Shown: piece by piece, positions 14,821 to 62,666 of the stretch
Position numbering within the stretch: position 1 is the stretch's first letter
Layout: every line of letters starts with the position of its first letter
Assembly: GCA_035546615.1 (NCBI GenBank)
Contig: DASZWM010000003.1
Span: 1-64,000 of the forward strand
Reading direction: 5' to 3'
DNA: 64,000 bases
Source of the DNA: Minisyncoccota bacterium
GTDB lineage: Bacteria; Patescibacteriota; Minisyncoccia; Phycocordibacterales; SBAW01
The notes under the pieces: model-generated
What the model was told of the DNA's origin: nothing
The model's database searches: none
What the model saw: only the letters and a program-made list of their open reading frames with translations
Made by a program: the position numbers and the translations under genes

Positions 14821-14959
14821 ACGAAAAAGGCCAAACCGCCTCTGCGGTTTGCCCCGTGCACTAGATACTACACCCGGATTTGTGTATCTGCAAAAGTCCG
14901 TGTCTGTGGATAACCGAACTCACTAGTATTTTCAACCCGGAATCGACCGAATCCTCTCG

Positions 14960-25259: not shown

Positions 25260-25558
25260 CGCGGTGAGACTTCATCTCGCCTGGCGATATGACCAAAAAA
25301 AGAAGGCCAAATCGCCGTTCGGCGGTTTGCCCTGTTAGTCATCACTATACGGCCAACCCTGTTTTCAGTAAAAGACTGAGCCTGTGGATAAGGGGCCGCT
25401 CGCTTGCGCAGTGGAGGAGCCGGATATTTTCCTGGTGGAAAATTCCTTAGCCTCGAGCCGTCGCTCTGCGGAACTCCTCAACTGCGCAAACTCGCTTTCG
25501 ATGTTCGAACCCTTCACTGCCGAGATTCGTTGCAAATACTAGATATATCGGATACAGG

Positions 25559-31591: not shown

Positions 31592-31892
31592 CCTAGCGCA
31601 TTGAGCAGCAGCTCCGGCCGCAAGGCGGGAGAGGAAAGTCCGAACACTTCGCGCGGCAGCGATGCCGCGCAACGGTAGCAGGTAACGCCTGTCGTTTGCT
31701 TCTGGCGGGCAAAAGGGGTGCGAACAGTGACGAACCGGTTAAGTCCGGGTGAAACGGCTAAATCCCTATCGGAGTGCAAGGCCGTGCCTGAGGGGCAACC
31801 CTTGGGAGTGCCGCTTGAGGCCGCGGGCGACCGCGGTCCCAGATAAATTGCCGCTCAAGACAGAATTCGGCTTACAGATGCGCGCGCTAGAT
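31592..31892 (+). ncRNA. rnpB: RNase P RNA (bacterial type, compact)
   Basis: P4 strands 'GAGAGGAAAGTCCGAACAC' and 'ACAGAATTCGGCTTAC'. Also 'GCAGGTAACGCCTG' and 'GGGTGAAACGGCTAAATCCC'. Ends 'CTAGCGCA..TGCGCGCGCTAG' form P1. A 'TATAAT' at 31582-31587 lies just upstream. Confidence 0.8.
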
Positions 31893-48465: not shown

Positions 48466-48966
48466 CTAGCGCTGGTTCTCCTCCAGCAGGCGCTTGTCCT
48501 CTTCGGTCGGCTCCAAATCCAGGCATACCGAGTTCAGGCAATAGCGCTTGCCGGTCGCGGTAGGGCCGTCGTCAAACACGTGGCCCAGATGGCTGCCGCA
48601 GTTGGCGCACAATACCTCCGTGCGGTGCATGCCGTAGGCGTTATCGGCCTTAAACTCCACCGCGCCCGGAAGCGCCTGGTCGAACGACGGCCAGCCGGTG
48701 CCGGAGTCGAATTTCGCGCTGGAGGCGAAAAGCGGATTGTTGCACGCCGCGCAGCGGTACACGCCGTCGCGATCTTCGTGCAGGAGCTTGCCGGAGAACG
48801 GCGCCTCCGTCCCGCGCTCGCGCAATATCGCGTACTGCTCGGGCGTGAGCTTCTGCTTCCAGCCCTCCTCGTCGCGCGGCATGTCGTCGTGGTCGTGATG
48901 TGTATTGGAATTAGTCATAGGTTTTCTGTCGAATCGATAGGTATAAGTATACAAACTCCTACTCAT
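48466..48966 (-). CDS. msrB: peptide-methionine (R)-S-oxide reductase MsrB
   Basis: 'CAACNNPLF', 'GWPSF', '[21 protein letters not shown]'. Two CxxC pairs and the catalytic Cys. Confidence 0.9.
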
Positions 48967-49657
48967 AGACTACTTCTGTTATCTCCGCGTGCGGGTTCGG
49001 TATGACGCACAGGACCTTTCCGGCTATCTTAAAGTCCTCGCGGAGCACTATCGGGCGGTACTTGGGGTTCTTGGATTCCGGATACAGTATCGTGACGCCG
49101 TTCTTCTTTTCGTAGCGCTTCACCGTCACCATATCGCCCACTATCGCCGCCACCCGGTCGCCGTTCTGCGCCTCGTCGGTAAAGCGGATAAGCACGTAGT
49201 CGCCCGGATTGATGCCCGCGTCCTGCATGGAGTCGCCTACCGCGCGCACCGCCACGATGCCGCCCTCTTCCCCCGCGCCGCGCGGAGCAACCTCCTCGCC
49301 GCGGTACGGCCCGTCGGCTATGGTCTTGTCCACTTCAAGGAATTCGTCGTACTGCTCCTGCGCAAAAAGGCTCAGGTCGTCGCAGCCGACGTTCGCCACC
49401 ACCGGCACGCTGACCGTCCGGTTGGGCATGCCGTCGGAATCGGCATTGCGCAGCTCTATGTTGCGGCGCGCGTGCTTGCGGCGGTAGATGTAGCCTTTTT
49501 CCTCCAGCGCCTCCAGATACTGCGTCACGGTGCGCAGCGACTTGAGTTTGAGGCTCGCCTTGAGCTCCTCCAGGGTCGGCGGCTCCTTGTGCTTGAGCAT
49601 GTAGGCCTCAAGCGTATCGAGCACGTGCTGCTGTTTAATTGTGAGTGCGTGCTGCAT
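48959..49657 (-). CDS. lexA: LexA repressor (S24 peptidase)
   Basis: N-terminal winged HTH, 'AVRAVGDSM' (Ser nucleophile) and '..VTVKRY' (Lys). Confidence 0.9.
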
Positions 49658-49690
49658 ACCTACATACTAAACCAGGTCTTTTTTGTGTGC

Positions 49691-49722
49691 AATACACAAC
49701 ATACACAAGTTGGGGATAACCG
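49691..49722. promoter_or_regulatory. tandem ATACACAA repeat + TTGGGGATAAC element in lexA/alkB-like divergent promoter (candidate operator)
   Basis: 'AATACACAACATACACAAGTTGGGGATAAC'. Nearly the same 30 bp recurs at 56691-56722, in the same minus-strand orientation, upstream of another minus-strand operon. Confidence 0.4.
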
Positions 49723-49760
49723 GCGCGACAAGCGTGCACACAAGTCTTTAGGCTACAGAG

Positions 49761-50381
49761 ATGGCTATCGCCCGCACCGCAGACCAGGGGAAACTATTTG
49801 ACTTGCCGCTGTCGCTCCCCAACGGATTGGTCTACCGGCCGGATTTCCTGACGCCCGAGGAAGAAGAACTGTTGCTGGCGTACGTAGAGAATCTGCCGAT
49901 GGTGCACCCCACATTCGAAGAGCACGAGGCAAAACGGCGGCTTGCCGCGTTCGGCTGGAGCTACGACTTTGAGCGCGAAAAGCTTATCGAGGGCCCGCCG
50001 CTTCCGAAATTCCTGCATCCGGCGCAAAGGAAGATCGCCAAATGGCTCGGTATCTCCCCCGCCCGGGTGGTTGAGGCGCTGGTGCAGGAGTACACGCCGG
50101 GCTCGGCCATAGGCTGGCACCGCGACAACGAAAAGTTCGAATCTATCATCGGCATTTCGCTCGCGGGCTGGTGCAGGATGCGTTTCAGGCCCTTGGGCCT
50201 GAAACAATCAAGAAGTAGGCCGCTCGCAGCGAAAGATGTTGTGGCTCTGGAGCTCGAACCCCGCTCCTGCTACATCATGCAGAAGGACGTGCGGTGGAAG
50301 TGGCAGCATTCGGTGGCGCCCGTCAAAACCCTGCGCTATTCGATAACGTTCCGGACCCTGCCGGAGGGGTTTCGGCCCTAA
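49761..50381 (+). CDS. AlkB-like 2OG-Fe(II) dioxygenase (alkylation damage repair)
   Basis: 'GWHRDNE' (HxD), 'WQHSV' (His) and 'RYSITFR' (Arg-x-Ser) motifs. Divergent from lexA. Confidence 0.7.
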   Translation: MAIARTADQGKLFDLPLSLPNGLVYRPDFLTPEEEELLLAYVENLPMVHPTFEEHEAKRRLAAFGWSYDFEREKLIEGPPLPKFLHPAQRKIAKWLGISPARVVEALVQEYTPGSAIGWHRDNEKFESIIGISLAGWCRMRFRPLGLKQSRSRPLAAKDVVALELEPRSCYIMQKDVRWKWQHSVAPVKTLRYSITFRTLPEGFRP

Positions 50382-53193: not shown

Positions 53194-53242
53194 AGGCTCC
53201 TATTATACATATCCGGTACTTTCGAAACTAGAAGCCTGGCTC

Positions 53243-53524
53243 TTATTTTAGCTTTTTGCAAAAAGCTAAAATACTTTCGGCGCGGGGCGTGAGGGTATGG
53301 CGTACGTTCATCCCGTCGCTGCGCTTGTAGAGGAGCCCGGCGATAGCCATCTTGCGCAGATGGTCGGAAGCGTTCATATATCCCATCCCCAGCTTTTCCG
53401 CTATCCCCTCGATCGAGAGGCCCGGGGTCTGCTTGAGCAGATCCAATACCTGAAGGCGCCTATAGCTGGCAAAGCCTTTCACTATCCGCTCAAGCCGGCG
53501 ATATTCGCCCTGGTCTTTCGGCAT
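53243..53524 (-). CDS. ArsR/SmtB family transcriptional regulator
   Basis: 'YRRLQVLDLLKQTPGLSIEGIAEKLGMGYMNASDHLRKMAIAGLL' winged HTH. Start taken at MPKDQ. Confidence 0.75.
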   Translation of the reverse strand: MPKDQGEYRRLERIVKGFASYRRLQVLDLLKQTPGLSIEGIAEKLGMGYMNASDHLRKMAIAGLLYKRSDGMNVRHTLTPRAESILAFCKKLK

Positions 53525-53548
53525 GGCGAAGACTATATACGGTGTTTT

Positions 53549-53625
53549 ACGTTTTTGCAAAAAGCTTTGATAAAAGGGCGGGGCGGGCGGGAACGAAAGG
53601 CTTTATCACGGCTTTTTGCAAAAAG
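53549..53625. promoter_or_regulatory. two GCTTTTTGCAAAAAGC palindromes upstream of arsR (candidate operators); third copy at 53249-53268
   Basis: 'CGTTTTTGCAAAAAGC' at 53549-53564 and 'GCTTTTTGCAAAAAGC' at 53610-53625. A perfect 20-bp copy 'TAGCTTTTTGCAAAAAGCTA' lies at the arsR 3' end. Confidence 0.45.
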
Positions 53626-53647
53626 CTAAAATAAAAGAAATACATAA

Positions 53648-54105: not shown

Positions 54106-54141
54106 CCTTACTTAATGGCAGGCTCAGATATAGATTTATAA

Positions 54142-54540
54142 CTACAAAATTGAGATAACTTTCTTAACGACGGAGTCTGAAGCACTCTTGAGTCGATGTT
54201 CCCATATTCTTAATACCTTCCAATTCATACTTTTTAATTGTTTATTAACCAATCTATCTCTTTTCTTATTTCTTTCTATTTTGTTAGTCCAATATGCGCG
54301 ATTTGTCTTTGGAACTCTACAGTGAGTCTTACATCCGTGCCAAAAACAAGAGTCAATGAAAATTGCTGTCTTAGAAACAGAAAAAACAATATCAGGTCTG
54401 CCTGGCAATTTTGCCACATGAGTTGTAAACTTTAGTTTACTTTTTTTCAGTTGCTTCTGAAAAGATTTTTCTATACCTGAATTTCTACTCTTAATGAGAC
54501 GCATTATTTCGCTGCGTCTTCCAGAAGATACATTGTCCAT
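54142..54540 (-). CDS. vsr: very-short-patch-repair endonuclease Vsr
   Basis: 'IVFSVSKTAIFIDSCFWHGC..PKTNRAYWTNKIERNKKRD' is the Vsr signature. Confidence 0.85.
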   Translation of the reverse strand: MDNVSSGRRSEIMRLIKSRNSGIEKSFQKQLKKSKLKFTTHVAKLPGRPDIVFSVSKTAIFIDSCFWHGCKTHCRVPKTNRAYWTNKIERNKKRDRLVNKQLKSMNWKVLRIWEHRLKSASDSVVKKVISIL

Positions 54541-54544
54541 GCCT

Positions 54545-55612
54545 TTATTCTTCTATATCCCAACCTGTTGGAAGTGTGATTTTGGTATAGGCTCTTTCTT
54601 TGATAAAAGGGACAATCTCTGCGCTCGAAGGAAACTCTGCGTCAAATTCTCTCGTTAAATCACTTAACAAAGTGCCAGCAAGTCGTTCTCTATATTCTTT
54701 ACTGAGGCAAAGAGTATACCAGTCATGCAAATCTTTAAGAGTAATTATTCCTTGCACACGCTCAATAATCCCGAGCTGTTGTAGCAGGGCCTCAATAGGT
54801 TTCTTTTCTGCGTCTCGACAAACAATTACAATCCTGTCCGCTTCGATTCCCTCGACAATTCCTTCGGTTACTTCAGGAGTAAGTGTAAGGTGTTTTACCT
54901 GGATAGCTGTTCCAAAATTTGCCCACATATCTAATCCCCTATCCGCCGCATTCGTTACGCCAACTCTAAAAAGGGCTGCGGGCATAGCTACTTGAGTCTT
55001 TCTGGCATCTATGCCTAAAACCATTTTTATAAAACCTTCAAAATCAGTAAGTATTTCTTTGTCTTCATTTTTAATCGAAAGGGTGATTTCCGCTTTTAAT
55101 GCTCGTACAATAGCGGAAAAAAGAGCATGCACTGCTATTTCATATATTTTATCTGTGCTTCGTCTCAAGCCAGGACTTGATGTAAAAAGTTCCACTAATT
55201 CCATTATGGAAAAAGTGTCCACTGTTGACTGTTCGATATAGTCTCTTACCCGATGAACAGATAGTAACTTATTTTGTAAAGCTTTATAAATATAAGCCTC
55301 TACTCCGCCCTTACTTGTTGTATTTATTTTTCCTAACACTGCCAATAGTTGGGGCGGCATAGCATTAGGCTCAAAGATATTATCTTGGTACTTTGCGCTA
55401 GAAGTACTGCTCCTCCCAACAAGTAAGGTGGAGACTTCATCTCTCCAACGTTTAGAGACAGAGCGATAACTTTCTAGATCAGTTAGTTCTAGCTTTTTCT
55501 TAGTTCTATGATAGAAAAGTATCTCCGCTATCTGTATAGGTTTATAGAAGTGCACTCTGGCCTTCTTTATAACTGAATCCAGAGCCGCTTTTGCTTCTTC
55601 AGCCATTGACAT
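54545..55612 (-). CDS. putative type II restriction endonuclease (partner of adjacent C5-MTase)
   Basis: 355 aa, AT-rich. It overlaps the methyltransferase gene by 14 bp and sits upstream of vsr. No family assignment possible by eye. Confidence 0.4.
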   Translation of the reverse strand: MSMAEEAKAALDSVIKKARVHFYKPIQIAEILFYHRTKKKLELTDLESYRSVSKRWRDEVSTLLVGRSSTSSAKYQDNIFEPNAMPPQLLAVLGKINTTSKGGVEAYIYKALQNKLLSVHRVRDYIEQSTVDTFSIMELVELFTSSPGLRRSTDKIYEIAVHALFSAIVRALKAEITLSIKNEDKEILTDFEGFIKMVLGIDARKTQVAMPAALFRVGVTNAADRGLDMWANFGTAIQVKHLTLTPEVTEGIVEGIEADRIVIVCRDAEKKPIEALLQQLGIIERVQGIITLKDLHDWYTLCLSKEYRERLAGTLLSDLTREFDAEFPSSAEIVPFIKERAYTKITLPTGWDIEE

Positions 55613-56621
55613 ACGCCCGTTCTACCATATTTATGTCTTTTCCGCTAAACAATTCAGTTTGTTCAATAAAAGGAACCGGGTCTTTCGACATTGCTTCAAC
55701 CATTGCGTGGGCCACTGCTTCCATCTGAGGAACCACTACAGCATTACCAGCTTGCTTCCGGATTTGCTGGTCAGCAACAACAAATTTATATGAATCGGGA
55801 AAACCCTGTAATCTAAACATCTCTCTAGGAGTCAGTCTTCTTTCTCCATTTACAATAAGATAGTTATATGAACCATTAGCCCTAAGAGCGCATGAATAAG
55901 CATTCACGCCTAGGTTTCCAGACTTATTTTCGTGCAAGATTAACGGACGAGAATGAAGTTCTTTGTGTTGTTCTTTTAATTGTCTCTGGACTTTCTGCAA
56001 CATATAATCGCTAAGAAAGTGTTTTTTATCGACCTCATTATCAGGCTCAAGGATGTCTTCAAGAGTTTTCTTTTTTCCCCTCCCTTTGGTAGGAAATTCA
56101 AAAGGGTAGTTTTCTCTAAAACCTACAATCATTATTCGCTCTCTCTTTTGCGGAACGCCAAAATCTAGACCATTTAAAACTTTAAAGTGCACAAAATAAC
56201 CTAGTTTTCTTAAACTATTTAGAATTACTGAAAACGTCCTTCCTTGATCATGATTGGTAAGTTGTTTTACATTTTCCAAAAATAGAGCTTTTGGTTTCTT
56301 TGCCTTTAGAATTCTCTCAACATCAAAAAACAACGTGCCTCTTGTTTCAGAGAAACCTTTCATATTCCCCATGATGCTAAAAGCTTGGCATGGAAAACCG
56401 CCTGTCAAAATATCATGGTCAGGCACATCTTTTGCAACTATTTTCGTTATATCTCCATCTGGCTGGTCGCCGAAATGATTCTTATACATCTTCTGCGCAG
56501 CTTCATCCCATTCTGATGTAAAAACACATTTACCTCCTGCCGCTTCAAAACCAAGTCTAATGCCTCCAATTCCTGCAAAGAGATCGATAAAAGTAAATTT
56601 ATTCTTATTCGTTGGAGCCAT
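55599..56621 (-). CDS. DNA (cytosine-5)-methyltransferase
   Basis: Motif I 'FIDLFAGIGGIRLGFE', motif IV 'GGFPCQAFS', motif VI 'ENVKQL'. C-terminal target-recognition region. Confidence 0.9.
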   Translation of the reverse strand: MAPTNKNKFTFIDLFAGIGGIRLGFEAAGGKCVFTSEWDEAAQKMYKNHFGDQPDGDITKIVAKDVPDHDILTGGFPCQAFSIMGNMKGFSETRGTLFFDVERILKAKKPKALFLENVKQLTNHDQGRTFSVILNSLRKLGYFVHFKVLNGLDFGVPQKRERIMIVGFRENYPFEFPTKGRGKKKTLEDILEPDNEVDKKHFLSDYMLQKVQRQLKEQHKELHSRPLILHENKSGNLGVNAYSCALRANGSYNYLIVNGERRLTPREMFRLQGFPDSYKFVVADQQIRKQAGNAVVVPQMEAVAHAMVEAMSKDPVPFIEQTELFSGKDINMVERAYVNG

Positions 56622-56690
56622 AGAGCAATATATTTTAACACCTATTTTAAGCTTGCTATATTTTTAATAATAGCACTGAAATCTATATTT

Positions 56691-56722
56691 ATACACAATA
56701 TACACAAGTCTTGGGGATAACT
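56691..56722. promoter_or_regulatory. second copy of the ATACACAA-tandem / TTGGGGATAAC element, upstream of the methyltransferase-RE-vsr operon
   Basis: 'ATACACAATATACACAAGTCTTGGGGATAAC', to compare with 49691-49722. Confidence 0.4.
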
Positions 56723-56851
56723 TTAGTGAGGGCCGTTTTTGGTCCAGGATAGCCGTATCCGCCAGCCGATAAAAATAGAGTAAGGGGGTAAAGATCAGCA
56801 ATCGTGGGATGAGCGTGTCTAATAGTCACCTAAGGATTTATAGCCATAAGG

Positions 56852-57193
56852 CTATTGTGGCAAACCCTTAATTTTGTTTCTGAAGAAATTAAATCGCATC
56901 TTAGCATAGTCCCAAAGAAAAGAGCAGAACGACTTATTTGGATGTCTTTTTATTTCACGCAAGTTCTCGAAAGCATAATTAAGTATATCTATAAATAATA
57001 ACCCTGGTACAACACCCAATGCGAATATATACCAATCAGAAAAACGTGTTTTTAACAAACTGTAAGTCGCATTTACTGCAATTCCAAGAACTACCGCAAG
57101 CGTCGCACCGAGTATCACAAATGCCCACTGTATTTGTAGACTTCTTTCCTCTTGTAAATCACCCTTGTTCATGGCGAATATATCTAATAACAA
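56852..57193 (-). CDS. 2-TM membrane protein (last gene of Ubl/E1 operon; candidate effector)
   Basis: '..IQWAFVILGATLAVVLGIAVNATY..WYIFALGVVPGLLFIDIL..'. AT-rich. Confidence 0.4.
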   Translation of the reverse strand: MLLDIFAMNKGDLQEERSLQIQWAFVILGATLAVVLGIAVNATYSLLKTRFSDWYIFALGVVPGLLFIDILNYAFENLREIKRHPNKSFCSFLWDYAKMRFNFFRNKIKGLPQ

Positions 57194-57201
57194 GTAAAAA
57201 A

Positions 57202-57618
57202 TTATTCGAAGAAGCTACGCAATTGGACTAATATCCAGTTTCCAAATCGTCGCCACCATGACAGGGAGGAATGAATAAAGTATGCATCCTTGATGGTATC
57301 GTCATATTCTCGCCCGTGGCGTATCTGTTCTCGAGTCATCTTCGACGCCCAAATCACTTGATTTTCAATAATCCAATAATGTGACTGACAAGGATGATTC
57401 CAGTTTCCTATTGAAGGACGTAGCGAGACCACCCCCTGCCAATCAACTAGCGTATATTCGGTCTTACGGAGAGGGGTAACGATTTTAGTGCCACAACTGC
57501 AACAGCACAAATGGCTCGCGGTTCCGAAACGTCGTGAGATATATAGAACACCACTCTCAAGCTCTCTTGGTATGAACTCAACATATTCAGGACGCACCAA
57601 CTCTGTCTTCATATACAA
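57202..57618 (-). CDS. Cys/His-rich 138-aa protein of unknown function (Ubl/E1 operon)
   Basis: 'ASHLCCCSCGTKIV', 'NHPCQSHYW'. No JAMM HxH motif. Overlaps the E1 gene by 10 bp. Confidence 0.4.
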   Translation of the reverse strand: MYMKTELVRPEYVEFIPRELESGVLYISRRFGTASHLCCCSCGTKIVTPLRKTEYTLVDWQGVVSLRPSIGNWNHPCQSHYWIIENQVIWASKMTREQIRHGREYDDTIKDAYFIHSSLSWWRRFGNWILVQLRSFFE

Positions 57619-58808
57619 TCCTCTTTTGTAAGGGCGTGGGTCGCAATCGTGTACAGCGAATGACGTTCTCGCACATCATCAGCATAAAAACCACACAATT
57701 GCTTCCATTTTCCCACAGCCATGGCAGCATTTAGCATATTTAGGTCCGCAACCTGCATATTACGGTACACCGCCTCGGCCGGCACTTTTGCAAATGAAAC
57801 AACTTCCGCAATATGTCCATGATGGTCGGGTGTTCCAACTGTAAAGCGACACTGTCCGCGCAGAGACGCCTGATTATCGAGTGCCAAGTCTATTCCAACG
57901 TCTATGAACGGCACACCAAGAGCAATAAGGCCATTAAGTATGTTCTTCCGGCTCTCTCCGTCGTCGATAGCAACAAACACGAAGTCGAACCCGGACAGCT
58001 CGTGGAGATGCGCGTCCTGGACATAGTAGGGATGACGCTTCAAGCCCTTGTGTATACGTTCGTATATACCACTGAACCAATCCACTTTTAGTGGATTGTT
58101 AAGCTCCTGCTTCATCGGAGCACCCGGTGCTCTAAACGCGTTGTGGAGTTCGAACGTATCCCCATCGAAAATGTGGATTTCTTTCACCGGCGTCTTAGCA
58201 ACAAGGTCGAGAATATACGAACCAGTACCACCTAGTCCTATAATCGCCACCCGACTTGCAAGGAGTTTCGCCGTGGCCGCTCCAATACCAGCACGGGTTG
58301 TTGCCATATCAGGATAATGGAATGCGAGTTCCTGAGCTTCGACTACCGCCGGTACTGGTTTTTCACTTCGTGGATCGCAAGTCCGATCAATTGCTTGAGC
58401 TTCGTGCCAAATCAGACGAACATATGTCCAGATTTTTTCGTAGTAGTCGGCATACTTGCGCTTATCAGCGTGCACACGCGAGAAGGCGACAGTCGTCTTA
58501 ATCCCATCGCCCTTATCCTCCTCAGCGTTGTTCGAAATCATCTCCGTCATTAGTTGACCATCCGCGTTGTGCGGGGGTTCTCCAATCCACCAACACTGAT
58601 GGTTGGAACATGGATTCACTGTCTTTCCGGCCGCATCAATTTCAAGTGGGCAATAGAGAATTCCAGGCACTATTTTGCCTTCAGAGGTAACAGCAGGAAT
58701 TCCCTCAATTAAAAGATGAGAGGCAGTCCCTTGAATGACCCGGAGACGAAAACCTTCCGCCTCCAACTTTGCCAAATCGGCATTATGACTTATCCGTATT
58801 TCTGACAT
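57609..58808 (-). CDS. E1-like (ThiF/MoeB family) adenylyltransferase with ~170-aa N-terminal extra domain (possible E2-like)
   Basis: Rossmann 'VAIIGLGGTGSYILDLVAKTPVKEIHIFDGDTFELHNAFR', a C-terminal Cys/His region 'GTPDHHGH', and an N-terminal Cys-containing domain of unknown fold. Confidence 0.65.
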   Translation of the reverse strand: MSEIRISHNADLAKLEAEGFRLRVIQGTASHLLIEGIPAVTSEGKIVPGILYCPLEIDAAGKTVNPCSNHQCWWIGEPPHNADGQLMTEMISNNAEEDKGDGIKTTVAFSRVHADKRKYADYYEKIWTYVRLIWHEAQAIDRTCDPRSEKPVPAVVEAQELAFHYPDMATTRAGIGAATAKLLASRVAIIGLGGTGSYILDLVAKTPVKEIHIFDGDTFELHNAFRAPGAPMKQELNNPLKVDWFSGIYERIHKGLKRHPYYVQDAHLHELSGFDFVFVAIDDGESRKNILNGLIALGVPFIDVGIDLALDNQASLRGQCRFTVGTPDHHGHIAEVVSFAKVPAEAVYRNMQVADLNMLNAAMAVGKWKQLCGFYADDVRERHSLYTIATHALTKEDCI

Positions 58809-59040
58809 CGAAGTTCATATGATCGACCACATCTACACTTTGGCCCCGGCGAAGCGATCCTTCGTGTCCACCTGGCTTAGTCCATGAAACGCTGTAGCGA
58901 ACATCGCCTCCGAACGGACCAGTTGGGAATGCGAGCTTGATGACTTGCTCGTAGCTAATATCGTGTTCACCCCACTTCTCTTGAATACCGTTCACAACAA
59001 TGCTTATGGTGTGTCCATGCCCTTTATTATCGTCTGCCAT
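58783..59040 (-). CDS. ubiquitin-like beta-grasp protein (multiubiquitin-domain-like), first gene of operon
   Basis: An 85-aa protein with 'HTISIVVNGIQEKWGEHDISYEQVIKLAF..YSVSWTKPGGHEGSLRRGQSVDVVDHMNFDV'. It is translationally coupled to the E1 gene. There is no C-terminal GG. Confidence 0.4.
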   Translation of the reverse strand: MADDNKGHGHTISIVVNGIQEKWGEHDISYEQVIKLAFPTGPFGGDVRYSVSWTKPGGHEGSLRRGQSVDVVDHMNFDVRNTDKS

Positions 59041-59224
59041 ATAATTTTAATTGTCGGCTTTTTAATTTAAGTGCGGCACCGGTCGACCGCACTTGTATCG
59101 TACACCCATTTCTGATACCCTTGCAAGGTAACTAGATGTATCAAATGTTACCTAAAGTACCATATTTGTTATATCTGATACCTGTTGTTACAACCTATAA
59201 CAAGTTACGCACAGATTTCAAATC

Positions 59225-59584
59225 ATGAGAAAATCATCCGCTACAATAAACAATGAAAGCAGATCCACAGAGCTTGAAATCCGGAAAGAGATTGGCAGAC
59301 GTATCGCTGAAATGCGTAGCAAACTGGGGCTTACAGCTCGCCTTGTTGCCAAAGAACTTCATGTCTCACGCGAAGCCATTACTCACATTGAAACAGGGCG
59401 AAACAATATATCTGCCGTATCGCTGTGGGAATTGGCGACTCTCTTCCATTGTGATATTGCTGATTTTTTCCCTGATATTCCTAATGGATATTCTTTAACT
59501 AGGGTCGATATTAATAAAGTAGCACAAATGAGTGGAAAGACAGGGGCGGCATGGGCTGAAAAGATTTTTGGGAAAAAGAAATAA
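59225..59584 (+). CDS. XRE-family HTH transcriptional regulator
   Basis: 'IGRRIAEMRSKLGLTARLVAKELHVSREAITHIETGRNNISAVSLWELATLF'. Confidence 0.8.
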   Translation: MRKSSATINNESRSTELEIRKEIGRRIAEMRSKLGLTARLVAKELHVSREAITHIETGRNNISAVSLWELATLFHCDIADFFPDIPNGYSLTRVDINKVAQMSGKTGAAWAEKIFGKKK

Positions 59585-59588
59585 ATAT

Positions 59589-60083
59589 ATGATGTCAGAA
59601 AGAATTGAGAAAAAAGCGGAGGAAGTCTTAAGCGCACTGAATGTTAAGTCAATACCTATCTCTGTTGAAGAAATCGCGAATCAATTAAAGATCAAGATAG
59701 GAAGAGCACCTAGTAGTGAATTTTCTGGAATGTTGATTCGAAAAGATGGTCGAGCACTTATGGGTATAAATAACAGTGAAGGCACTGCGAGACAACGATT
59801 CACTATTGCGCATGAACTTGGGCATTATTTCTTACATCCACAAAATGATACTTTTGTAGACTATAGGCAGAACGAAAAAGAACCAAGAAATCATAGAGAA
59901 CGAGAGGCTGATATGTTTGCAGCAGCACTCTTAATGCCTAGGAAAGAAGTAACAAAAGACTTTCAGAAAATTGTTAGGAAAGGATTTTCAGAAATTGAAC
60001 TTCACAAACTGGCAGGAAAATATGAAGTGAGCGACAAAGCAATGAGATTTAGGTTAGTAAACTTAAATATGCTATTAGGTTAA
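59589..60083 (+). CDS. ImmA/IrrE-family zinc metallopeptidase
   Basis: 'FTIAHELGHYFLH' (HExxH) and 'EREADMFAAALLMP' downstream. Starts 5 nt after the XRE stop. Confidence 0.8.
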   Translation: MMSERIEKKAEEVLSALNVKSIPISVEEIANQLKIKIGRAPSSEFSGMLIRKDGRALMGINNSEGTARQRFTIAHELGHYFLHPQNDTFVDYRQNEKEPRNHREREADMFAAALLMPRKEVTKDFQKIVRKGFSEIELHKLAGKYEVSDKAMRFRLVNLNMLLG

Positions 60084-60087
60084 GATT

Positions 60088-60348
60088 TTATTGTCTACTC
60101 CCTTGTGATCCTAATCTATCCGTAAAAGGTCCCTCACGATGGGCCGCCGGATCTACATCCTTTTTTGTAATAACCTGGGGAAAGCGGGTATTTTCTTCAA
60201 TCTGCTCTAGTAACGTGACTATTCTGTTCAATTTCCAGTACCAGGTAAGGATTTCCCTGATCAGGAGGAATATCAGAGCGCCCACGCATAGGACAAAAAC
60301 GATATTTGGTAGCTGGGACCAGTAATATTGAAATAAGGGTTGAAGCAT
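60088..60348 (-). CDS. small TM protein, hypothetical (downstream of AbrB-like gene)
   Basis: 'WSQLPNIVFVLCVGALIFLLIREILTWYW' is a single TM segment. Confidence 0.3.
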   Translation of the reverse strand: MLQPLFQYYWSQLPNIVFVLCVGALIFLLIREILTWYWKLNRIVTLLEQIEENTRFPQVITKKDVDPAAHREGPFTDRLGSQGSRQ

Positions 60349-60351
60349 ATA

Positions 60352-60540
60352 TTACTTCTTCCAGTCGCGGATTATCAGCTTCTTTCTCTTCAGATCCACC
60401 TCTACGGTGAGCTTTTGGCGCTCTTTCCACTTGAACTTGCGGATAGCCTCCACCGGAAGCGCGACCGTATAGGTACTTCCCCGCCCCGTCTTGGTGAGCT
60501 TGCGGACCTGCTTTTTCTGCCCCGCCTTCGGCCGTGCCAT
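60352..60540 (-). CDS. AbrB/MazE/SpoVT-like DNA-binding protein
   Basis: 62 aa with 'KLTKTGRGSTYTVALPVEAIRKFKWKERQKLTVEV', a swapped-hairpin-like pattern. A 36-bp palindrome lies just upstream. Confidence 0.45.
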   Translation of the reverse strand: MARPKAGQKKQVRKLTKTGRGSTYTVALPVEAIRKFKWKERQKLTVEVDLKRKKLIIRDWKK

Positions 60541-60642
60541 GCGGATATGATACCACCGAACTCCTGAGCTAACTCAAGAGTTAGCTCAGGAGTTAATTAA
60601 AAACCGGCGCCTGGGGCGCCGGTTTGGCCAAGGTTGGCCGGA

Positions 60643-60918
60643 TTACTGAAGCGTGGGGCTGGAGCGGGTCTCGCTTATAGCCCAGTTGCCGTACAGGGTA
60701 TCGAGCTCGAGCTTGAGCTGCACGACCCGCTCGACCATCCCGACGTCTACGACGCGGAGATTAATCATAAAGGCCTCGGCATTGCGTATCGCCGCTTTGA
60801 TCTCCTTCTTCTTCGCGATGATCTCGGGCGGGAGCCGCCGCTTCCCGCTGTGGAAATCTCCGGCAAGCCGGATCATTGTCCGCGCCTCGTCGGGAGTAAG
60901 TACCCGATACTGATCCAA
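60643..60918 (-). CDS. hypothetical protein
   Basis: 91-aa ORF with no recognisable motif. Confidence 0.3.
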   Translation of the reverse strand: MDQYRVLTPDEARTMIRLAGDFHSGKRRLPPEIIAKKKEIKAAIRNAEAFMINLRVVDVGMVERVVQLKLELDTLYGNWAISETRSSPTLQ

Positions 60919-61039
60919 AGCCTCTCTCCTGTCTTATAAGCGGCCACCCGCTTTCGGGTACGATACTAGCATCGAAAAAAGAAATAAAACAGGCCCGCGG
61001 CTTGCGCCGCGGGCCTCTTGTCTGCCTAACTCCGTGGAG

Positions 61040-61465
61040 TTAGGACCTCTTCCCTGCCGGCTCCATGTAGAAGATCCAGAACTCCAGCGACGAATTGCCG
61101 ACATCCACCATCCAGCCGTGGGCGTACTCGTCGCCGTTATTCACCACGCCGTAGTCGATGTTTACTTTCCCGACCTGGACCGGACCGACCTGGTTGAGGC
61201 CGCAGCGGGGATAGCCGCGAGCGTCGACCTCCTGGTGATACACGGTGTATAGCGCCGTGCTTTCGGCCGGATCCCGATAGCGGGCGTCCAGGAGGGTCTT
61301 CAGATCTTCCTGAGATTTGCACCACAGGACCGGCTGGCGGAACCAACCGTAAAATTCCTCGCCCGGCGGCTGCGCCGAGACGGGAGCTACGAGGCACGCC
61401 ATGCACGCGAGAGCAATCAAAGAACGGTTGAACATCTTGGACCTCGTTGGTTGGTCCTTGGACAT
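61040..61465 (-). CDS. secreted hypothetical protein
   Basis: Signal peptide 'MFNRSLIALACMACLVAPVSAQ'. Confidence 0.4.
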   Translation of the reverse strand: MSKDQPTRSKMFNRSLIALACMACLVAPVSAQPPGEEFYGWFRQPVLWCKSQEDLKTLLDARYRDPAESTALYTVYHQEVDARGYPRCGLNQVGPVQVGKVNIDYGVVNNGDEYAHGWMVDVGNSSLEFWIFYMEPAGKRS

Positions 61466-61589
61466 CCTCTCTGCCTACACCTTTTTTCGTCCTTGGGAGG
61501 ACATACCGATTGTATGACGTCTTGTGCCGATGGCAAATAGTCCGCGCTTTTGCTAGAGTACTGGCTGGCACGAACAACAGGAGACGCGG

Positions 61590-61961
61590 ATGATCAATTG
61601 CCTTATGGTCCGGGGCACCGGCATCACGAACAGCATGTCGAGCCTTCTCTACCGGACCGCCATGCAGATGGTGCAGGAAAAGAAAAGCTCGAAGAAGTTC
61701 AAGGGCGGCGACTGCCAGGGCGTCCTTTCGACAGAATGGAAGTACGCCGGCATGGGCACGATATCGGGCCTGCAGTTCAGCGCGAAGGTGGAGAGCGCGG
61801 CGGGTACGACCGAGGTTACGTTCATCATCCGCTCGCTGGACCTGGACGAACCGGATGACGACTCGTGGGAAGCGGTACCCGACCAGGAGACGTTCGACCG
61901 CTACGCGGTTGCGGACGCGCTCGAAGAGCGGGACGCGATTCCCAGATCCAGGCTCAACTGA
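61590..61961 (+). CDS. hypothetical protein
   Basis: 123-aa ORF followed by terminator 'AAAAAGCCCCGCGCGCCCCACGGCGCGCGGGGCTTTCTG' at ~61979-62017. Confidence 0.35.
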   Translation: MINCLMVRGTGITNSMSSLLYRTAMQMVQEKKSSKKFKGGDCQGVLSTEWKYAGMGTISGLQFSAKVESAAGTTEVTFIIRSLDLDEPDDDSWEAVPDQETFDRYAVADALEERDAIPRSRLN

Positions 61962-62072
61962 TGCGGATTGCTCCCGCCGAAAAAGCCCCGCGCGCCCCAC
62001 GGCGCGCGGGGCTTTCTGCATGGCAAACGGCCCGCGCTTTTGCTACAGTACGGGCGGATAGAAACTTGAGGA

Positions 62073-62666
62073 GTGCAGCTGATGACACTAAAGAAGATGC
62101 AGATACTGCTTCCCAGGGGCTTTGTCGATCCGACGGGCCCCGGGATGAAAGACGTGCCGCTCTTCTTTTTGGGCGGGCCGGTGCGCGGCGGCGGAGACTG
62201 GCAGTCGAGAATGGCAATCATGCTGGCCGAGATGGTAGATGGCGACTGCCTGATAGCTATCCCTGCGCGGTGGAACGGAGACCATTGCCTGGCGCATCGC
62301 GTTACACCGACGGACAGGAAGTCAGACTTTCCGCGCCAGCTCAACTGGGAGCGATACTACCTGAACCATGCGGGATTCCATCCGCGCCCGGGATGCGTCG
62401 TTTTCTGGCTCGCAGTCCAGCGGGAATCCCGGCCGGCCGAAGACGGGCCGTACGCCCAGGACACCTACGGGGAGGTTGGCGAGTGGCGAGGGCGCATGAT
62501 GTACAACCCGTCGATACGCTTCGTCGCGGGAGCGGAAGCGACGTTCCCCGGCCTGGATGTCATCCAGCGCAACTTCAATATGGCGCTTAACCGCGAGTTC
62601 CCGATCTATAAGACGATGGAGGAAACCGCGGCGGCGGCCGTGAAAGCGGCGCTGGCGCAAGCGTAA
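62073..62666 (+). CDS. hypothetical protein (possible nucleoside deoxyribosyltransferase-like fold)
   Basis: 'VPLFFLGGPVRGGGDWQ' resembles the Rossmann-like start of Ndt-like proteins. This is a weak call. Confidence 0.3.
   Translation: MQLMTLKKMQILLPRGFVDPTGPGMKDVPLFFLGGPVRGGGDWQSRMAIMLAEMVDGDCLIAIPARWNGDHCLAHRVTPTDRKSDFPRQLNWERYYLNHAGFHPRPGCVVFWLAVQRESRPAEDGPYAQDTYGEVGEWRGRMMYNPSIRFVAGAEATFPGLDVIQRNFNMALNREFPIYKTMEETAAAAVKAALAQA

What the first reader, a model, noticed from the sequence alone, without database searches (positions are those of the whole stretch)
49691..49722. Shared 30-bp tandem-repeat element in the lexA/alkB divergent promoter and again upstream of the MTase-REase-vsr operon: candidate SOS operator
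'AATACACAACATACACAAG-TTGGGGATAAC' (49691-49722) and 'ATACACAATATACACAAGTCTTGGGGATAAC' (56691-56722) are near-identical. Both contain a direct tandem ATACACAA and both are oriented the same way relative to a downstream minus-strand operon (lexA; MTase-REase-vsr). A further half-copy 'ACACAAGTCTTTAGG' sits at 49735-49749. lexA is divergent from an AlkB-like repair dioxygenase. LexA autoregulates via operators in its own promoter, and some lineages use direct-repeat rather than palindromic LexA boxes. If this is the LexA box of this lineage, the R-M/Vsr cassette would be SOS-controlled. Alternatively the element is a conserved promoter or a short mobile repeat.
Basis: partly seen in the sequence, partly recalled or inferred. 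Interest (0 to 1): 0.6.

Follow-up and report, generated by a model that had tools for sequence, protein, structure and literature searches.

The report
LexA-type operator upstream of restriction-modification operon
A 31-bp control element found in front of the DNA-damage regulator gene lexA throughout a clade of ultra-small (CPR/Patescibacteria) bacteria is repeated here in front of a foreign restriction-modification operon, and about sixteen other restriction-modification systems elsewhere are tied to the same lexA promoter, which suggests these defence genes are wired to it.

Summary
Two near-identical 31-bp elements lie at 49691-49721 and 56691-56721, in the same orientation, upstream of lexA and of a C5-methylase/HaeII-endonuclease/Vsr operon.

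The window comes from a Candidatus Paceibacterota (Patescibacteria) genome. The element has two parts: a DnaA-box-like 9-mer (TTATCC[A/C]CA), then 2-5 nt, then a strict direct repeat TTGTGTAT-N-TTGTGTAT. It sits upstream of lexA in 74 of 75 related species genomes. It ends a fixed 19-20 nt before an extended -10 promoter element.

Outside lexA promoters, every strong copy in about 1.7 Mb of related DNA precedes a type II restriction-modification operon (10 different types). Seven further restriction-modification systems are inserted directly into the lexA operon. umuD/Y-family polymerase and alkB genes share the same control region divergently.

Best reading (about 0.6): the direct repeat is this clade's LexA operator, and restriction-modification genes are repeatedly placed under lexA-promoter (SOS) control. 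The 9-mer is probably a separate factor's site.

LexA binding is inferred, not shown, and recA/uvrA promoters could not be examined.

Novelty: a direct-repeat LexA motif is reported for Patescibacteria. I found no report of the restriction-modification wiring.

The parts
49692..49708 (-). Direct repeat TTGTGTAT-G-TTGTGTAT of the lexA promoter (unit 2 = 49692-49699, unit 1 = 49701-49708). Candidate LexA operator.
   Evidence: The same repeat is upstream of lexA in 74 of 75 relatives. The GTGTAT cores are 94-98% conserved.
49711..49720 (-). DnaA-box-like 9-mer GTTATCCCCA, 2 nt upstream of the repeat.
   Evidence: The core TATCC[A/C]CA is essentially invariant across 114 distinct lexA promoters.
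49664..49669 (-). Putative -10 hexamer TAGTAT of lexA, 6 nt before the ATG (49655-49657); probably a leaderless mRNA.
   Evidence: Read directly from the sequence.
48959..49657 (-). lexA (232 aa).
   Evidence: Pfam LexA_DNA_bind + Peptidase_S24. 100% identical to a protein named LexA of Candidatus Paceibacterota. 30% identical to E. coli LexA, with the catalytic Ser and Lys conserved.
48466..48966 (-). msrB (SelR), second gene of the lexA operon.
   Evidence: Pfam. Directly downstream of lexA in 43 loci.
49738..49744 (+). Single repeat unit (ACACAAG) immediately upstream of the alkB -10 (TAGGCT, 49747-49752).
   Evidence: Conserved in L170.
49761..50381 (+). alkB-like 2OG-Fe(II) dioxygenase, divergent from lexA.
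   Evidence: Pfam. Divergent lexA-alkB pairs also occur in L005, L006, L020, L043, L074 and L170.
56691..56707 (-). Direct repeat TTGTGTAT-A-TTGTGTAT upstream of the R-M operon (unit 2 = 56691-56698, unit 1 = 56700-56707).
56712..56721 (-). DnaA-box-like 9-mer GTTATCCCCA, 4 nt upstream of the repeat.
56667..56675 (-). Extended -10 TGCTATTAT; its hexamer starts 18 nt after the repeat. A second -10-like TAAAAT lies at 56632-56637.
   Evidence: Read from the sequence. Register analysis.
55599..56621 (-). C5 cytosine DNA methyltransferase, first gene of the operon.
   Evidence: Pfam DNA_methylase, E 8e-98. PADLOC MTase_II.
54545..55612 (-). HaeII-family type II restriction endonuclease; overlaps the MTase gene by 14 nt.
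   Evidence: Pfam RE_HaeII, E 4e-127. PADLOC REase_II.
54142..54540 (-). Vsr very-short-patch repair endonuclease, last gene of the operon.
   Evidence: Pfam Vsr.
54106..62030 (.). Inserted variable region that carries the R-M operon and other defence genes (GC 36-51% from 54 to 61 kb, about 60% over the last kb). Absent from the closest relative.
   Evidence: Composition. GC3 of 0.30 against about 0.8 in flanking genes. Synteny break against L170, which has a NERD gene there.

Best explanation
The 31-bp element is the regulatory core of the lexA promoter of a Paceibacterota (Adlerbacteria-like) clade. It has two parts.

(1) A direct repeat, GTGTAT-N3-GTGTAT (9-bp period), occupies about -48 to -32, where a -35 hexamer would be, in front of an extended -10 promoter. 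I infer that this is the LexA operator of the clade. A LexA dimer bound head-to-tail would block RNA polymerase, giving autoregulation of lexA (with msrB, and often a PIF1 helicase), and release after RecA-stimulated LexA cleavage.

(2) A DnaA-box-like 9-mer, TTATCC[A/C]CA, lies 2-5 bp further upstream. It is probably bound by a different protein, with DnaA the obvious candidate.

The second copy in the window puts a horizontally acquired, low-GC methylase-endonuclease-Vsr operon under the same control. This is one case of a general rule in the clade: type II R-M systems either carry a copy of this operator/promoter or are inserted into the lexA operon itself. Their expression is therefore tied to lexA: low and feedback-buffered normally, raised on DNA damage.

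Shown: the sequence conservation, the fixed promoter register, the exclusive association with lexA and R-M, and the shared control region with umuD/polY and alkB.
Inferred: that LexA is the protein bound, that it represses, that the 9-mer is a DnaA site, and the physiological rationale.
For: Conservation at lexA:
- The element is upstream of lexA in 74 of 75 species-representative genomes and in 64 of 90 strict-pattern metagenome matches.
- The GTGTAT cores are 94-98% conserved while the base between the units is free.
- The unit spacing is 1 nt in 72 of 74 sites.
- The repeat ends 19-20 nt before the -10 in 96 of 114 distinct lexA promoters and in most R-M promoters.

Specificity:
- In 1.17 Mb around lexA genes, the only other strong sites precede two R-M operons.
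- In metagenomes, 25 of the 26 non-lexA matches precede R-M operons of 10 types and one is at a contig end.
- Seven further R-M systems lie 0-20 nt downstream of lexA, inside its operon.

Link to the SOS response:
- umuD-like + Y-family polymerase operons are divergent from lexA and abut the element in L010, the P0126 contig (gene table only, no DNA) and L294.
- alkB does the same in 7 genomes.
- An independent umuD-polY operon (L168) has an ATGTAT-N3-ATGTAT repeat with the same 9-bp period abutting its start codon, without the 9-mer.

Motif tracks regulator type: other Parcubacteria that encode a different 187-aa LexA-like protein have a GAAC-N4-GTTC palindrome in that gene's promoter instead.

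Precedent:
- Direct-repeat LexA motifs exist, including a TACACA-type repeat validated by EMSA in Balneolaeota. The same paper cites the 2017 Patescibacteria study as another direct-repeat case (PMC7739468).
- The unit differs by one base from the E. coli half-site CTGTAT (my own knowledge).

The protein has LexA domains and the catalytic Ser and Lys.

The neighbouring defence module in the same island carries CapH/CapP-like DNA-damage regulators, so damage-inducible defence is plausible here.
Against: - No binding or expression data exist.
- recA, uvrA and dnaA are absent from all retrieved DNA, so the classical regulon test was not possible.
- The repeat is centred near -40, which is also a typical activator position.
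- In lexA and R-M promoters the repeat never occurs without the 9-mer, so one unknown factor recognising all three units is not excluded.
- The LexA cleavage region reads ANVGCDD, not Ala-Gly.
- Many R-M promoters are very similar to each other and share leader sequence, so some of the recurrence is common descent or cassette exchange rather than independent selection.
- Some MTases near lexA lack the element (L071, L073).
- The sequence of the published Patescibacteria motif could not be read.
Confidence: 0.6

Rival explanations
1. Same promoter module, different protein. The repeat, alone or together with the 9-mer, is bound by a factor other than LexA: for example DnaA using one strong and two weak boxes, or an unidentified activator at a class-II position. 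lexA and the R-M operons would then be co-regulated by replication or cell-cycle status rather than by the SOS response.
For: - TTATCCACA is the canonical DnaA box. The reverse complement of each repeat unit (ATACACA) matches 7 of 9 positions of the E. coli R2 box TTATACACA (my own knowledge).
- The repeat and the 9-mer always co-occur at lexA and R-M promoters.
- The repeat is centred near -40, in front of promoters that lack a good -35.
- The 9-mer alone recurs about 50 nt upstream of other promoters, at window 14905-14913 and 25383-25391 and at wHTH gene promoters in six loci.
Against: - The 9-mer-to-repeat spacing varies from 2 to 5 nt while the unit-to-unit spacing is fixed, which argues for two separate binders.
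- The repeat units lack the AA that a DnaA box would require after TGTGTAT; T is preferred there.
- The 9-mer varies at its seventh base (A/C), which is fixed in the TTATNCACA consensus, and is invariant at the base that consensus leaves free.
- L168 has the repeat without the 9-mer at an SOS gene.
- The only regulator gene consistently linked to the element is lexA.
Confidence: 0.2
2. Promoter hitch-hiking without regulatory meaning. R-M cassettes are exchanged by recombination at a variable defence locus, and simply carry, or land behind, a copy of a reliable native promoter. The similarity to the lexA promoter reflects one ancient promoter capture that spread with the cassettes.
For: - Different MTases share the leader and even the first codons (MEQLxxM) downstream of the element in L125, L141, L130 and L136.
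- 15 of 27 R-M loci have the same conserved 62-aa gene upstream.
- R-M copies are nearly all the consensus version, with a 4-nt spacer in 17 of 21.
- The R-M genes are foreign by composition while the promoter is clade-specific.
Against: - Across 21 distinct R-M promoters the 9-mer and both repeat units are invariant, while the spacer, the inter-unit base and the 19 nt to the -10 diverge freely. This is the signature of selection on binding sites.
- A second, independent arrangement, R-M inserted inside the lexA operon in at least 7 types, gives the same coupling without any promoter copy.
- The hits come from at least six unrelated sequencing projects.
Confidence: 0.12
3. Recombination or attachment site. 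The two copies are att-like direct repeats left by insertion of a mobile element, or sites for a recombinase that shuffles cassettes.
For: - The two copies are in direct orientation, 7.0 kb apart.
- In several contigs the R-M copy lies 4.7-7.5 kb upstream of lexA in the same orientation: L048, L079, L103 and L124.
Against: - The interval 49.7-54.1 kb between the copies is native-GC and syntenic with relative L170. L170 lacks the island yet keeps the lexA copy.
- The 56.7-kb copy lies inside the island, not at its edge (the island is about 54.1-62.0 kb).
- No integrase or recombinase was found in the island.
- The element keeps a fixed register to a -10 element.
Confidence: 0.03

Closest known systems
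Direct-repeat LexA operators: Alphaproteobacteria/Acidobacteria GTTC-N7-GTTC; Balneolaeota TTACACATATTTTWTACATA (PMC7739468); and the Patescibacteria motif of Sanchez-Osuna, Barbe and Erill 2017 (PMID 28618189, not readable here)
   Same: - Two identical half-sites in tandem, in the promoter of lexA itself and conserved across the clade.
- The unit (TACACA / TGTGTA) resembles the Balneolaeota unit and, with one base changed, the E. coli half-site CTGTAT.
   Different: - The period is 9 bp, against 11 in Alphaproteobacteria and about 13 in Balneolaeota.
- At lexA and R-M promoters it is always paired with a DnaA-box-like 9-mer.
- The non-lexA targets recovered are R-M operons rather than recA or translesion polymerases alone.
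- Whether it equals the published Parcubacteria motif could not be checked.
E. coli-type palindromic SOS box (CTGT-N8-ACAG) and Gram-positive box (GAAC-N4-GTTC)
   Same: A repressor site in the lexA promoter. Neighbouring Parcubacteria lineages still use the GAAC-N4-GTTC type at LexA-like/polY operons.
   Different: Tandem rather than inverted half-sites. The site sits at the -35 region of an extended -10 promoter.
DnaA box TTATCCACA
   Same: 66 of 114 lexA promoters and 17 of 21 R-M promoters carry the exact consensus 9-mer, often with the G flank seen at strong E. coli boxes.
   Different: - Both window copies read TTATCCCCA.
- The pattern of variation (seventh base A/C, fifth base fixed) differs from TTATNCACA.
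- No origin context.
- DnaA binding is untested.
Controller (C) protein regulation of type II R-M systems
   Same: A dedicated operator in front of an R-M operon that sets the level and timing of methylase and endonuclease expression.
   Different: No C gene in the operon. The operator is shared with a host regulator gene and is identical across at least 10 unrelated R-M families, so the regulator must be host-encoded.
DNA-damage-responsive regulators of defence operons: CapH/CapP, CapW, CapK/CapS (bioRxiv 10.1101/2022.04.27.489752; PMC11662680; PMC13373217)
   Same: Immune operons are kept repressed and induced by DNA damage. A CapH/CapP-like pair sits 2.5 kb away in the same island.
   Different: Those systems bring their own sensor-repressor pair. 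Here the proposed regulator is the cell's own LexA, acting through a copy of its autoregulatory operator or through insertion into its operon.
Suspected LexA control of vsrA in Caulobacter (PMC12907096)
   Same: A Vsr-type endonuclease linked to cytosine methylation is proposed to be under a direct-repeat LexA box.
   Different: There the box is a single intragenic site in one species. Here the site is a promoter operator for whole M-R-Vsr operons and recurs across many systems.

Membership tests
LexA operator (SOS box) | Lies in the promoter of lexA itself (autoregulation). | tested here: met
   The repeat ends 34 nt before the lexA ATG in the window. It is present upstream of lexA in 74 of 75 relatives.
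LexA operator (SOS box) | Two half-sites with fixed spacing, conserved across orthologous promoters while flanks drift. | tested here: met
   GTGTAT-N3-GTGTAT. The spacing is invariant in 72 of 74 sites. Information content is concentrated on the two cores.
LexA operator (SOS box) | Overlaps core promoter elements so that binding blocks RNA polymerase. | tested here: inconclusive
   Fixed register, about -48 to -32 relative to an inferred extended -10. This is compatible with repression or with class-II activation. No transcription start data.
LexA operator (SOS box) | Also present at other SOS genes (recA, uvrA, umuDC/dinB). | tested here: inconclusive
   - umuD-like/polY shares the region in L010 and L294 (sequence) and in the P0126 contig (gene order only).
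- alkB shares it in 7 genomes.
- A repeat-like site is at an independent umuD gene in L168.
- recA and uvrA were not present in any retrieved DNA.
LexA operator (SOS box) | Bound specifically by LexA protein. | not testable with these tools
   Needs EMSA or footprinting.
LexA repressor (protein encoded at 48959-49657) | N-terminal winged-helix LexA DNA-binding domain plus C-terminal S24 peptidase domain. | tested here: met
   Pfam PF01726, E 4.7e-13, and PF00717, E 1.3e-18.
LexA repressor (protein encoded at 48959-49657) | Catalytic Ser-Lys dyad. | tested here: met
   GDSM (Ser143) and TVKR (Lys180) align with E. coli Ser119 and Lys156. Both are invariant in 12 clade members.
LexA repressor (protein encoded at 48959-49657) | Ala-Gly self-cleavage site. 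| tested here: not met
   The aligned segment is the invariant ANVGCDD, with no Ala-Gly; Val90-Gly91 is the nearest equivalent. Cleavage competence is unknown.
DnaA box | 9-mer matching TTATNCACA. | tested here: inconclusive
   The exact TTATCCACA is in 66 of 114 lexA and 17 of 21 R-M promoters. Both window copies are TTATCCCCA, and the variation pattern differs from the consensus.
DnaA box | Bound by DnaA; clustered at oriC or at DnaA-regulated promoters. | not tested
   No dnaA or oriC region in the retrieved DNA. Isolated boxes lie upstream of two other window promoters.
Type II restriction-modification operon (54142-56621) | Cognate DNA methyltransferase and restriction endonuclease genes in one operon. 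| tested here: met
   DNA_methylase E 8e-98 and RE_HaeII E 4e-127, with a 14-nt gene overlap and Vsr 4 nt downstream. PADLOC MTase_II and REase_II.
Dispersed mobile repeat (REP/MITE-like) | Many copies scattered in intergenic and genic DNA, usually with inverted termini. | tested here: not met
   Two copies in 64 kb. In 1.7 Mb of related DNA, all strong copies are promoter-proximal to lexA or R-M genes.
Attachment-site duplication flanking an island | Direct repeats at the two ends of the inserted DNA; a single copy at the empty site. | tested here: not met
   The island is about 54.1-62.0 kb, and the second copy is internal to it. DNA between the copies is native and syntenic with L170.

The most novel reading that the evidence does not exclude
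In a whole clade of Patescibacteria, the host SOS repressor LexA is the master regulator of type II restriction-modification. Incoming R-M cassettes persist preferentially when they sit behind a copy of the lexA operator or inside the lexA operon. Restriction, methylation and Vsr repair would then be feedback-buffered in normal growth and induced by DNA damage, for example from phage attack, DNA uptake or self-restriction. A second input would come through an adjacent DnaA-type box that couples expression to replication.
Probability: 0.4. Interest if true: 0.8.

Novelty: new variant of a known kind. Interest (0 to 1): 0.66.

Why it matters
R-M systems are toxic if the endonuclease outruns the methylase. 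Known solutions are system-encoded (C proteins, methylase autoregulation). A host LexA operator reused by many unrelated R-M systems would be a different, host-centred solution. It would also extend the recent theme that bacterial immune operons are switched on by DNA damage.

It would add a functional class to the SOS regulon, in a phylum whose members have tiny genomes and few regulators and cannot be grown easily.

The prediction is directly testable with one purified protein and two 100-bp fragments. It also gives a simple sequence tag (9-mer plus repeat) for finding active R-M promoters in these genomes.

Tried and rejected
- Att-site or island-boundary idea: rejected by composition and by synteny with L170.
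- General promoter motif: rejected. In 1.17 Mb the repeat occurs only at lexA and R-M promoters, and the 9-mer count outside lexA promoters is about 25-29 against 17-23 in shuffles.
- Small AbrB-like gene (60352-60540) as the binder: unlikely. It is conserved upstream of many R-M cassettes, but its own promoters carry a different palindrome family and no copy of the element, and it is absent from close relatives that keep the lexA element. It has no Pfam, PADLOC or PDB-sequence match, so the AbrB assignment is by eye only.
- Structured RNA at the island edge: Rfam found only RNase P RNA and tRNAs in the window.
- Viral collections: the strict composite pattern gave 0 hits. The repeat-only pattern gave at least 120 hits, mostly giant-virus or tandem-repeat matches, and was uninformative.
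- Published Patescibacteria LexA motif: the paper is not held, and other papers and supplements give only the names of the validated proteins.
- recA, uvrA and dnaA: tblastn searches of all retrieved loci found none.
- Several umuD-like homologues came from other lineages or from samples without retrievable DNA.
- Literature search for LexA-controlled R-M systems: nothing direct.

Full report
**1. The observation**

On the strand of the downstream genes they read:
- Copy 1 (49720 down to 49692): GTTATCCCCA-AC-TTGTGTAT-G-TTGTGTAT.
- Copy 2 (56721 down to 56691): GTTATCCCCA-AGAC-TTGTGTAT-A-TTGTGTAT.

They differ by one base between the repeat units and by a 2-nt indel. Shuffled sequence gives 0.05 matches to the repeat pattern and none to the longer 22-mer. 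No further copy exists in the 64 kb.

- lexA, 48959-49657 (-).
- An AlkB-type dioxygenase, 49761-50381 (+).
- A C5 methylase, a HaeII-family endonuclease and Vsr, 56621 down to 54142 (-).

The 'half-copy' is a single unit at 49738-49744, 3 nt from the stated position.

**2. Organism and context**

The LexA protein is identical to one from a Candidatus Paceibacterota MAG (a 156.9-kb contig). Its relatives are Adlerbacteria, Parcubacteria and other Patescibacteria.

The R-M operon lies in a low-GC stretch: 36-51% GC from 54 to 61 kb, against about 60% in the flanking DNA. Its GC3 is 0.30, against about 0.8 for native genes.

The closest relative with a long contig is L170 (LexA 90% identical). 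It is collinear with window 44-54.1 kb and 62.0-63.8 kb. In place of 54.1-62.0 kb it has a single NERD gene. The R-M operon is therefore part of an inserted, variable defence region of about 8 kb. The lexA-alkB region is native.

**3. What the element is**

I fetched lexA loci from 76 species-representative genomes. In 74 of the 75 with usable upstream DNA, the same composite precedes lexA: [G]TTATCC[A/C]CA, then 1-5 nt (3-4 in most), then TTGTGTAT-N-TTGTGTAT.

- *The repeat.* The GTGTAT cores are 94-98% conserved, the base between the units is free, and the unit spacing is fixed.
- *The 9-mer.* Its core T-A-T-C-C-[A/C]-C-A is essentially invariant. Its distance to the repeat varies: 3 nt in 51 promoters, 4 in 40, 5 in 16 and 2 in 6. 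That variation suggests two separately bound sites.
- *Register to the promoter.* The repeat ends 19-20 nt before a -10 hexamer in 96 of 114 distinct lexA promoters. The -10 is usually of the extended type, TGTGnTAnnnT. The repeat thus fills about -48 to -32, the place of a -35 element. The -10 is typically 6 nt from the ATG, so the mRNAs look leaderless; this is inferred from sequence only.

**4. Where else it occurs**

*Near lexA.* In the 1.17 Mb around these lexA genes plus the window, a weight matrix for the repeat finds 74 lexA promoters and just two other strong sites. One is the window's R-M promoter. The other is in L048, in front of an N6/N4 methylase followed by a TdeIII endonuclease.

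*In metagenomes.* A strict-pattern scan gave 90 matches:
- 64 are lexA promoters.
- 1 is at a contig end.
- 25 precede DNA methyltransferase genes or, in one case, an endonuclease gene.

By Pfam these 25, together with the window and L048, make 10 different type II R-M operon types:
- C5 methylase + HaeII + Vsr.
- N6/N4 + TdeIII.
- C5 + D12 methylases.
- Two N6/N4 methylases.
- N6/N4 + unknown genes.
- N6/N4 + MvaI/BcnI.
- D12 alone.
- NgoPII + C5.
- C5 + Vsr + BsaWI-like.
- Another C5.

The contigs come from at least six unrelated projects. No recA, uvr, nrd or other gene class appeared among the matches.

*Conservation within R-M promoters.* Across the 21 distinct R-M promoters the 9-mer and both units are invariant, while the spacers and the 19 nt down to the -10 diverge. 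A decayed version (the 9-mer plus one unit) precedes another methylase in L090.

**5. A second, independent link**

I looked at the genes directly downstream of lexA on the same strand. They are msrB in 43 loci, a PIF1-type helicase in 17 and a DUF218 protein in 14.

In at least 13 loci, complete R-M systems lie 0-20 nt after lexA, ahead of msrB or PIF1 where those are present:
- N6/N4 + EcoO109I.
- N6/N4 + DUF6996/6997.
- N6/N4 + a PD-(D/E)XK-like protein.
- N6/N4 + an unknown 202-aa protein.
- C5 + HNH.
- C5 alone.
- A DpnI-family enzyme.

These systems use the lexA promoter itself. Coupling of R-M expression to the lexA promoter has thus arisen in two ways and in about 17 R-M types. It is not universal: three methylase genes near lexA in L071 and L073 have no such element.

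**6. Is the repeat a LexA operator?**

Evidence in favour:
- It is the one conserved motif of the lexA promoter across the clade.
- Its units resemble known LexA half-sites. E. coli uses CTGTAT (my own knowledge). The EMSA-validated Balneolaeota direct repeat is TTACACATA...TACATA (PMC7739468).
- The Patescibacteria study is cited as showing a direct-repeat LexA motif. Its validated proteins are listed in PMC8565304 Table S2. The motif sequence itself was not available to me.
- umuD-like/Y-family polymerase operons start 2-14 nt from the 9-mer, divergent from lexA, in L010 and L294. The P0126 contig has the same gene order, though its DNA could not be retrieved.
- alkB starts 4-11 nt from the 9-mer in L005, L006, L020, L043 and L074. 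In the window and L170 it starts about 40 nt away.
- An independent umuD/polY operon (L168) has ATGTAT-N3-ATGTAT with the same 9-bp period against its start codon, without the 9-mer. By my rough estimate from the background hit rate, a chance site of that score at that position has a probability of about 1e-4.
- In other Parcubacteria lineages a different, 187-aa LexA-like protein is encoded behind a GAAC-N4-GTTC palindrome (L164). An umuD-like gene sits behind TGTAC-N4-GTACA (L166). The promoter motif therefore changes with the type of regulator.

Evidence against, or missing:
- There are no binding data.
- recA and uvrA could not be sampled.
- The position near -40 would also suit an activator.
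- The LexA cleavage region is ANVGCDD rather than Ala-Gly, although the Ser and Lys are conserved.

**7. The 9-mer**

It equals the DnaA-box consensus in most promoters. The window's CCCCA variant recalls weak DnaA boxes described in Caulobacter; that comparison is from memory and unchecked.

It also occurs alone about 50 nt upstream of other promoter-like sequences: window 14905-14913 and 25383-25391, and wHTH gene promoters in six loci. Roughly half of the non-composite copies are intergenic.

Its pattern of variation does not match TTATNCACA. I treat DnaA as the leading candidate, not as a finding.

**8. How it most likely works**

In normal growth LexA occupies the repeat. It holds the lexA operon and the R-M operons at a low, feedback-stabilised level.

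DNA damage could come from phage, from imported DNA or from self-restriction of under-methylated sites. It would activate RecA, LexA would be cleaved, and methylase (the first gene), endonuclease and Vsr would all rise together.

The same island also carries a CapH/CapP-like pair (59225-60083) next to a multiubiquitin/E1/DUF6527 operon. CapH/CapP induce immune operons on DNA damage, and Bub-type operons are reported to be under such regulators. Damage-inducible defence is therefore a known principle. Using the host's own LexA operator for type II R-M is the new variant.

All of this section is inference from architecture.

**9. Verdict**

The finding is real and its core idea holds up as far as sequence can show. 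The element is an ancient, clade-wide lexA promoter/operator module, not a mobile repeat or an att site. Its copy at the R-M operon belongs to a systematic pattern.

I put 0.6 on LexA operator with SOS/lexA-coupled R-M, 0.2 on another factor binding the same module, 0.12 on neutral promoter hitch-hiking and 0.03 on a recombination site.

Noticed in passing
window 53240-53640: A small winged-helix (ArsR/MarR-like) regulator gene, 53243-53518 (-), is bracketed by three copies of the palindrome GCTTTTTGCAAAAAGC, probably its own operator. The gene and the palindrome are conserved in many relatives, there often preceded by TTATCCCCAC about 25 nt upstream. It forms the lexA-proximal flank of the variable defence region.
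   Followed up: partly
window 60352-60540 (-), with its promoter at 60541-60610: A 62-aa basic protein that looks AbrB/SpoVT-like by eye (no Pfam, PADLOC or PDB-sequence hit).
- It is 72-79% conserved.
- It lies upstream, on the same strand and 0-3.6 kb away, of the R-M promoter element in 15 of 27 R-M loci, but in only 5 of 131 lexA-only loci.
- Its own promoter carries a 36-bp perfect palindrome (AACTCCTGAGCTAACTC-TT-GAGTTAGCTCAGGAGTT), and related palindromes occur in other loci.
- It is absent from the closest relatives.
- It may mark the head of a mobile or variable defence locus.
   Followed up: partly
window 57202-60083: A CapH-like HTH (59225-59584, +) and a CapP-like M78 peptidase (59532-60083, +; PADLOC capP E 4.8e-38) lie divergent from an operon of multiubiquitin (58783-59040), DUF6791-ThiF E1-like (57609-58808) and DUF6527 (57202-57618) genes. 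This looks like a Bub-type ubiquitin-like defence operon under a DNA-damage-responsive regulator pair, in a CPR genome.
   Followed up: partly
window 48959-49657 (LexA residues 88-94): The LexA of this clade has the invariant ANVGCDD where E. coli has VAAGEP, so there is no Ala-Gly cleavage bond. The catalytic Ser and Lys are kept.
   Followed up: partly
window 14905-14913 and 25383-25391 (both -): Two exact TTATCCACA 9-mers, each about 50 nt upstream of a sigma-70-like promoter (TTGCAG-17-TAGTAT and TTTACT-17-TATAGT). The first also has a single inverted ATACACAA unit in the promoter spacer. I estimate about 0.2 exact copies expected by chance in the window.
   Followed up: partly
window 61530-61583 and 62020-62073: A 54-nt direct repeat (76% identity), 490 bp apart. 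Each copy ends in AGGAG just before an ORF start (61590 and 62073). It is apparently a duplicated promoter/RBS region at the far edge of the inserted region.
   Followed up: no
L164 3960-4000; L166 3960-4000: Other Parcubacteria lineages carry a Gram-positive-type box (TAGAACGAACGTTCTA) between the -35 and -10 of a 187-aa LexA-like/polY operon. Another carries TGTACGAACGTACA before an umuD-like gene. Two LexA families with two operator types therefore coexist in the phylum.
   Followed up: partly
L002, L003, L007, L129 (upstream of lexA): The SAM synthetase gene metK is divergent from lexA in four loci, 48-247 nt from the element. This is notable given the methyltransferase link, but it was not analysed.
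   Followed up: no
L125, L141, L130, L136, L077: Unrelated methylases (C5 and N6/N4) share not only the promoter element but also the leader (TTAAATTTTGTAGACAAGTAATCGTG) and the first codons (MEQLxxM). This indicates recombination breakpoints just inside the coding region and cassette swapping.
   Followed up: no
window 31593-31890 (+): A bacterial RNase P RNA, class A, scoring just above the Rfam threshold (105 bits against 100). Seven tRNA genes lie elsewhere in the window.
   Followed up: no
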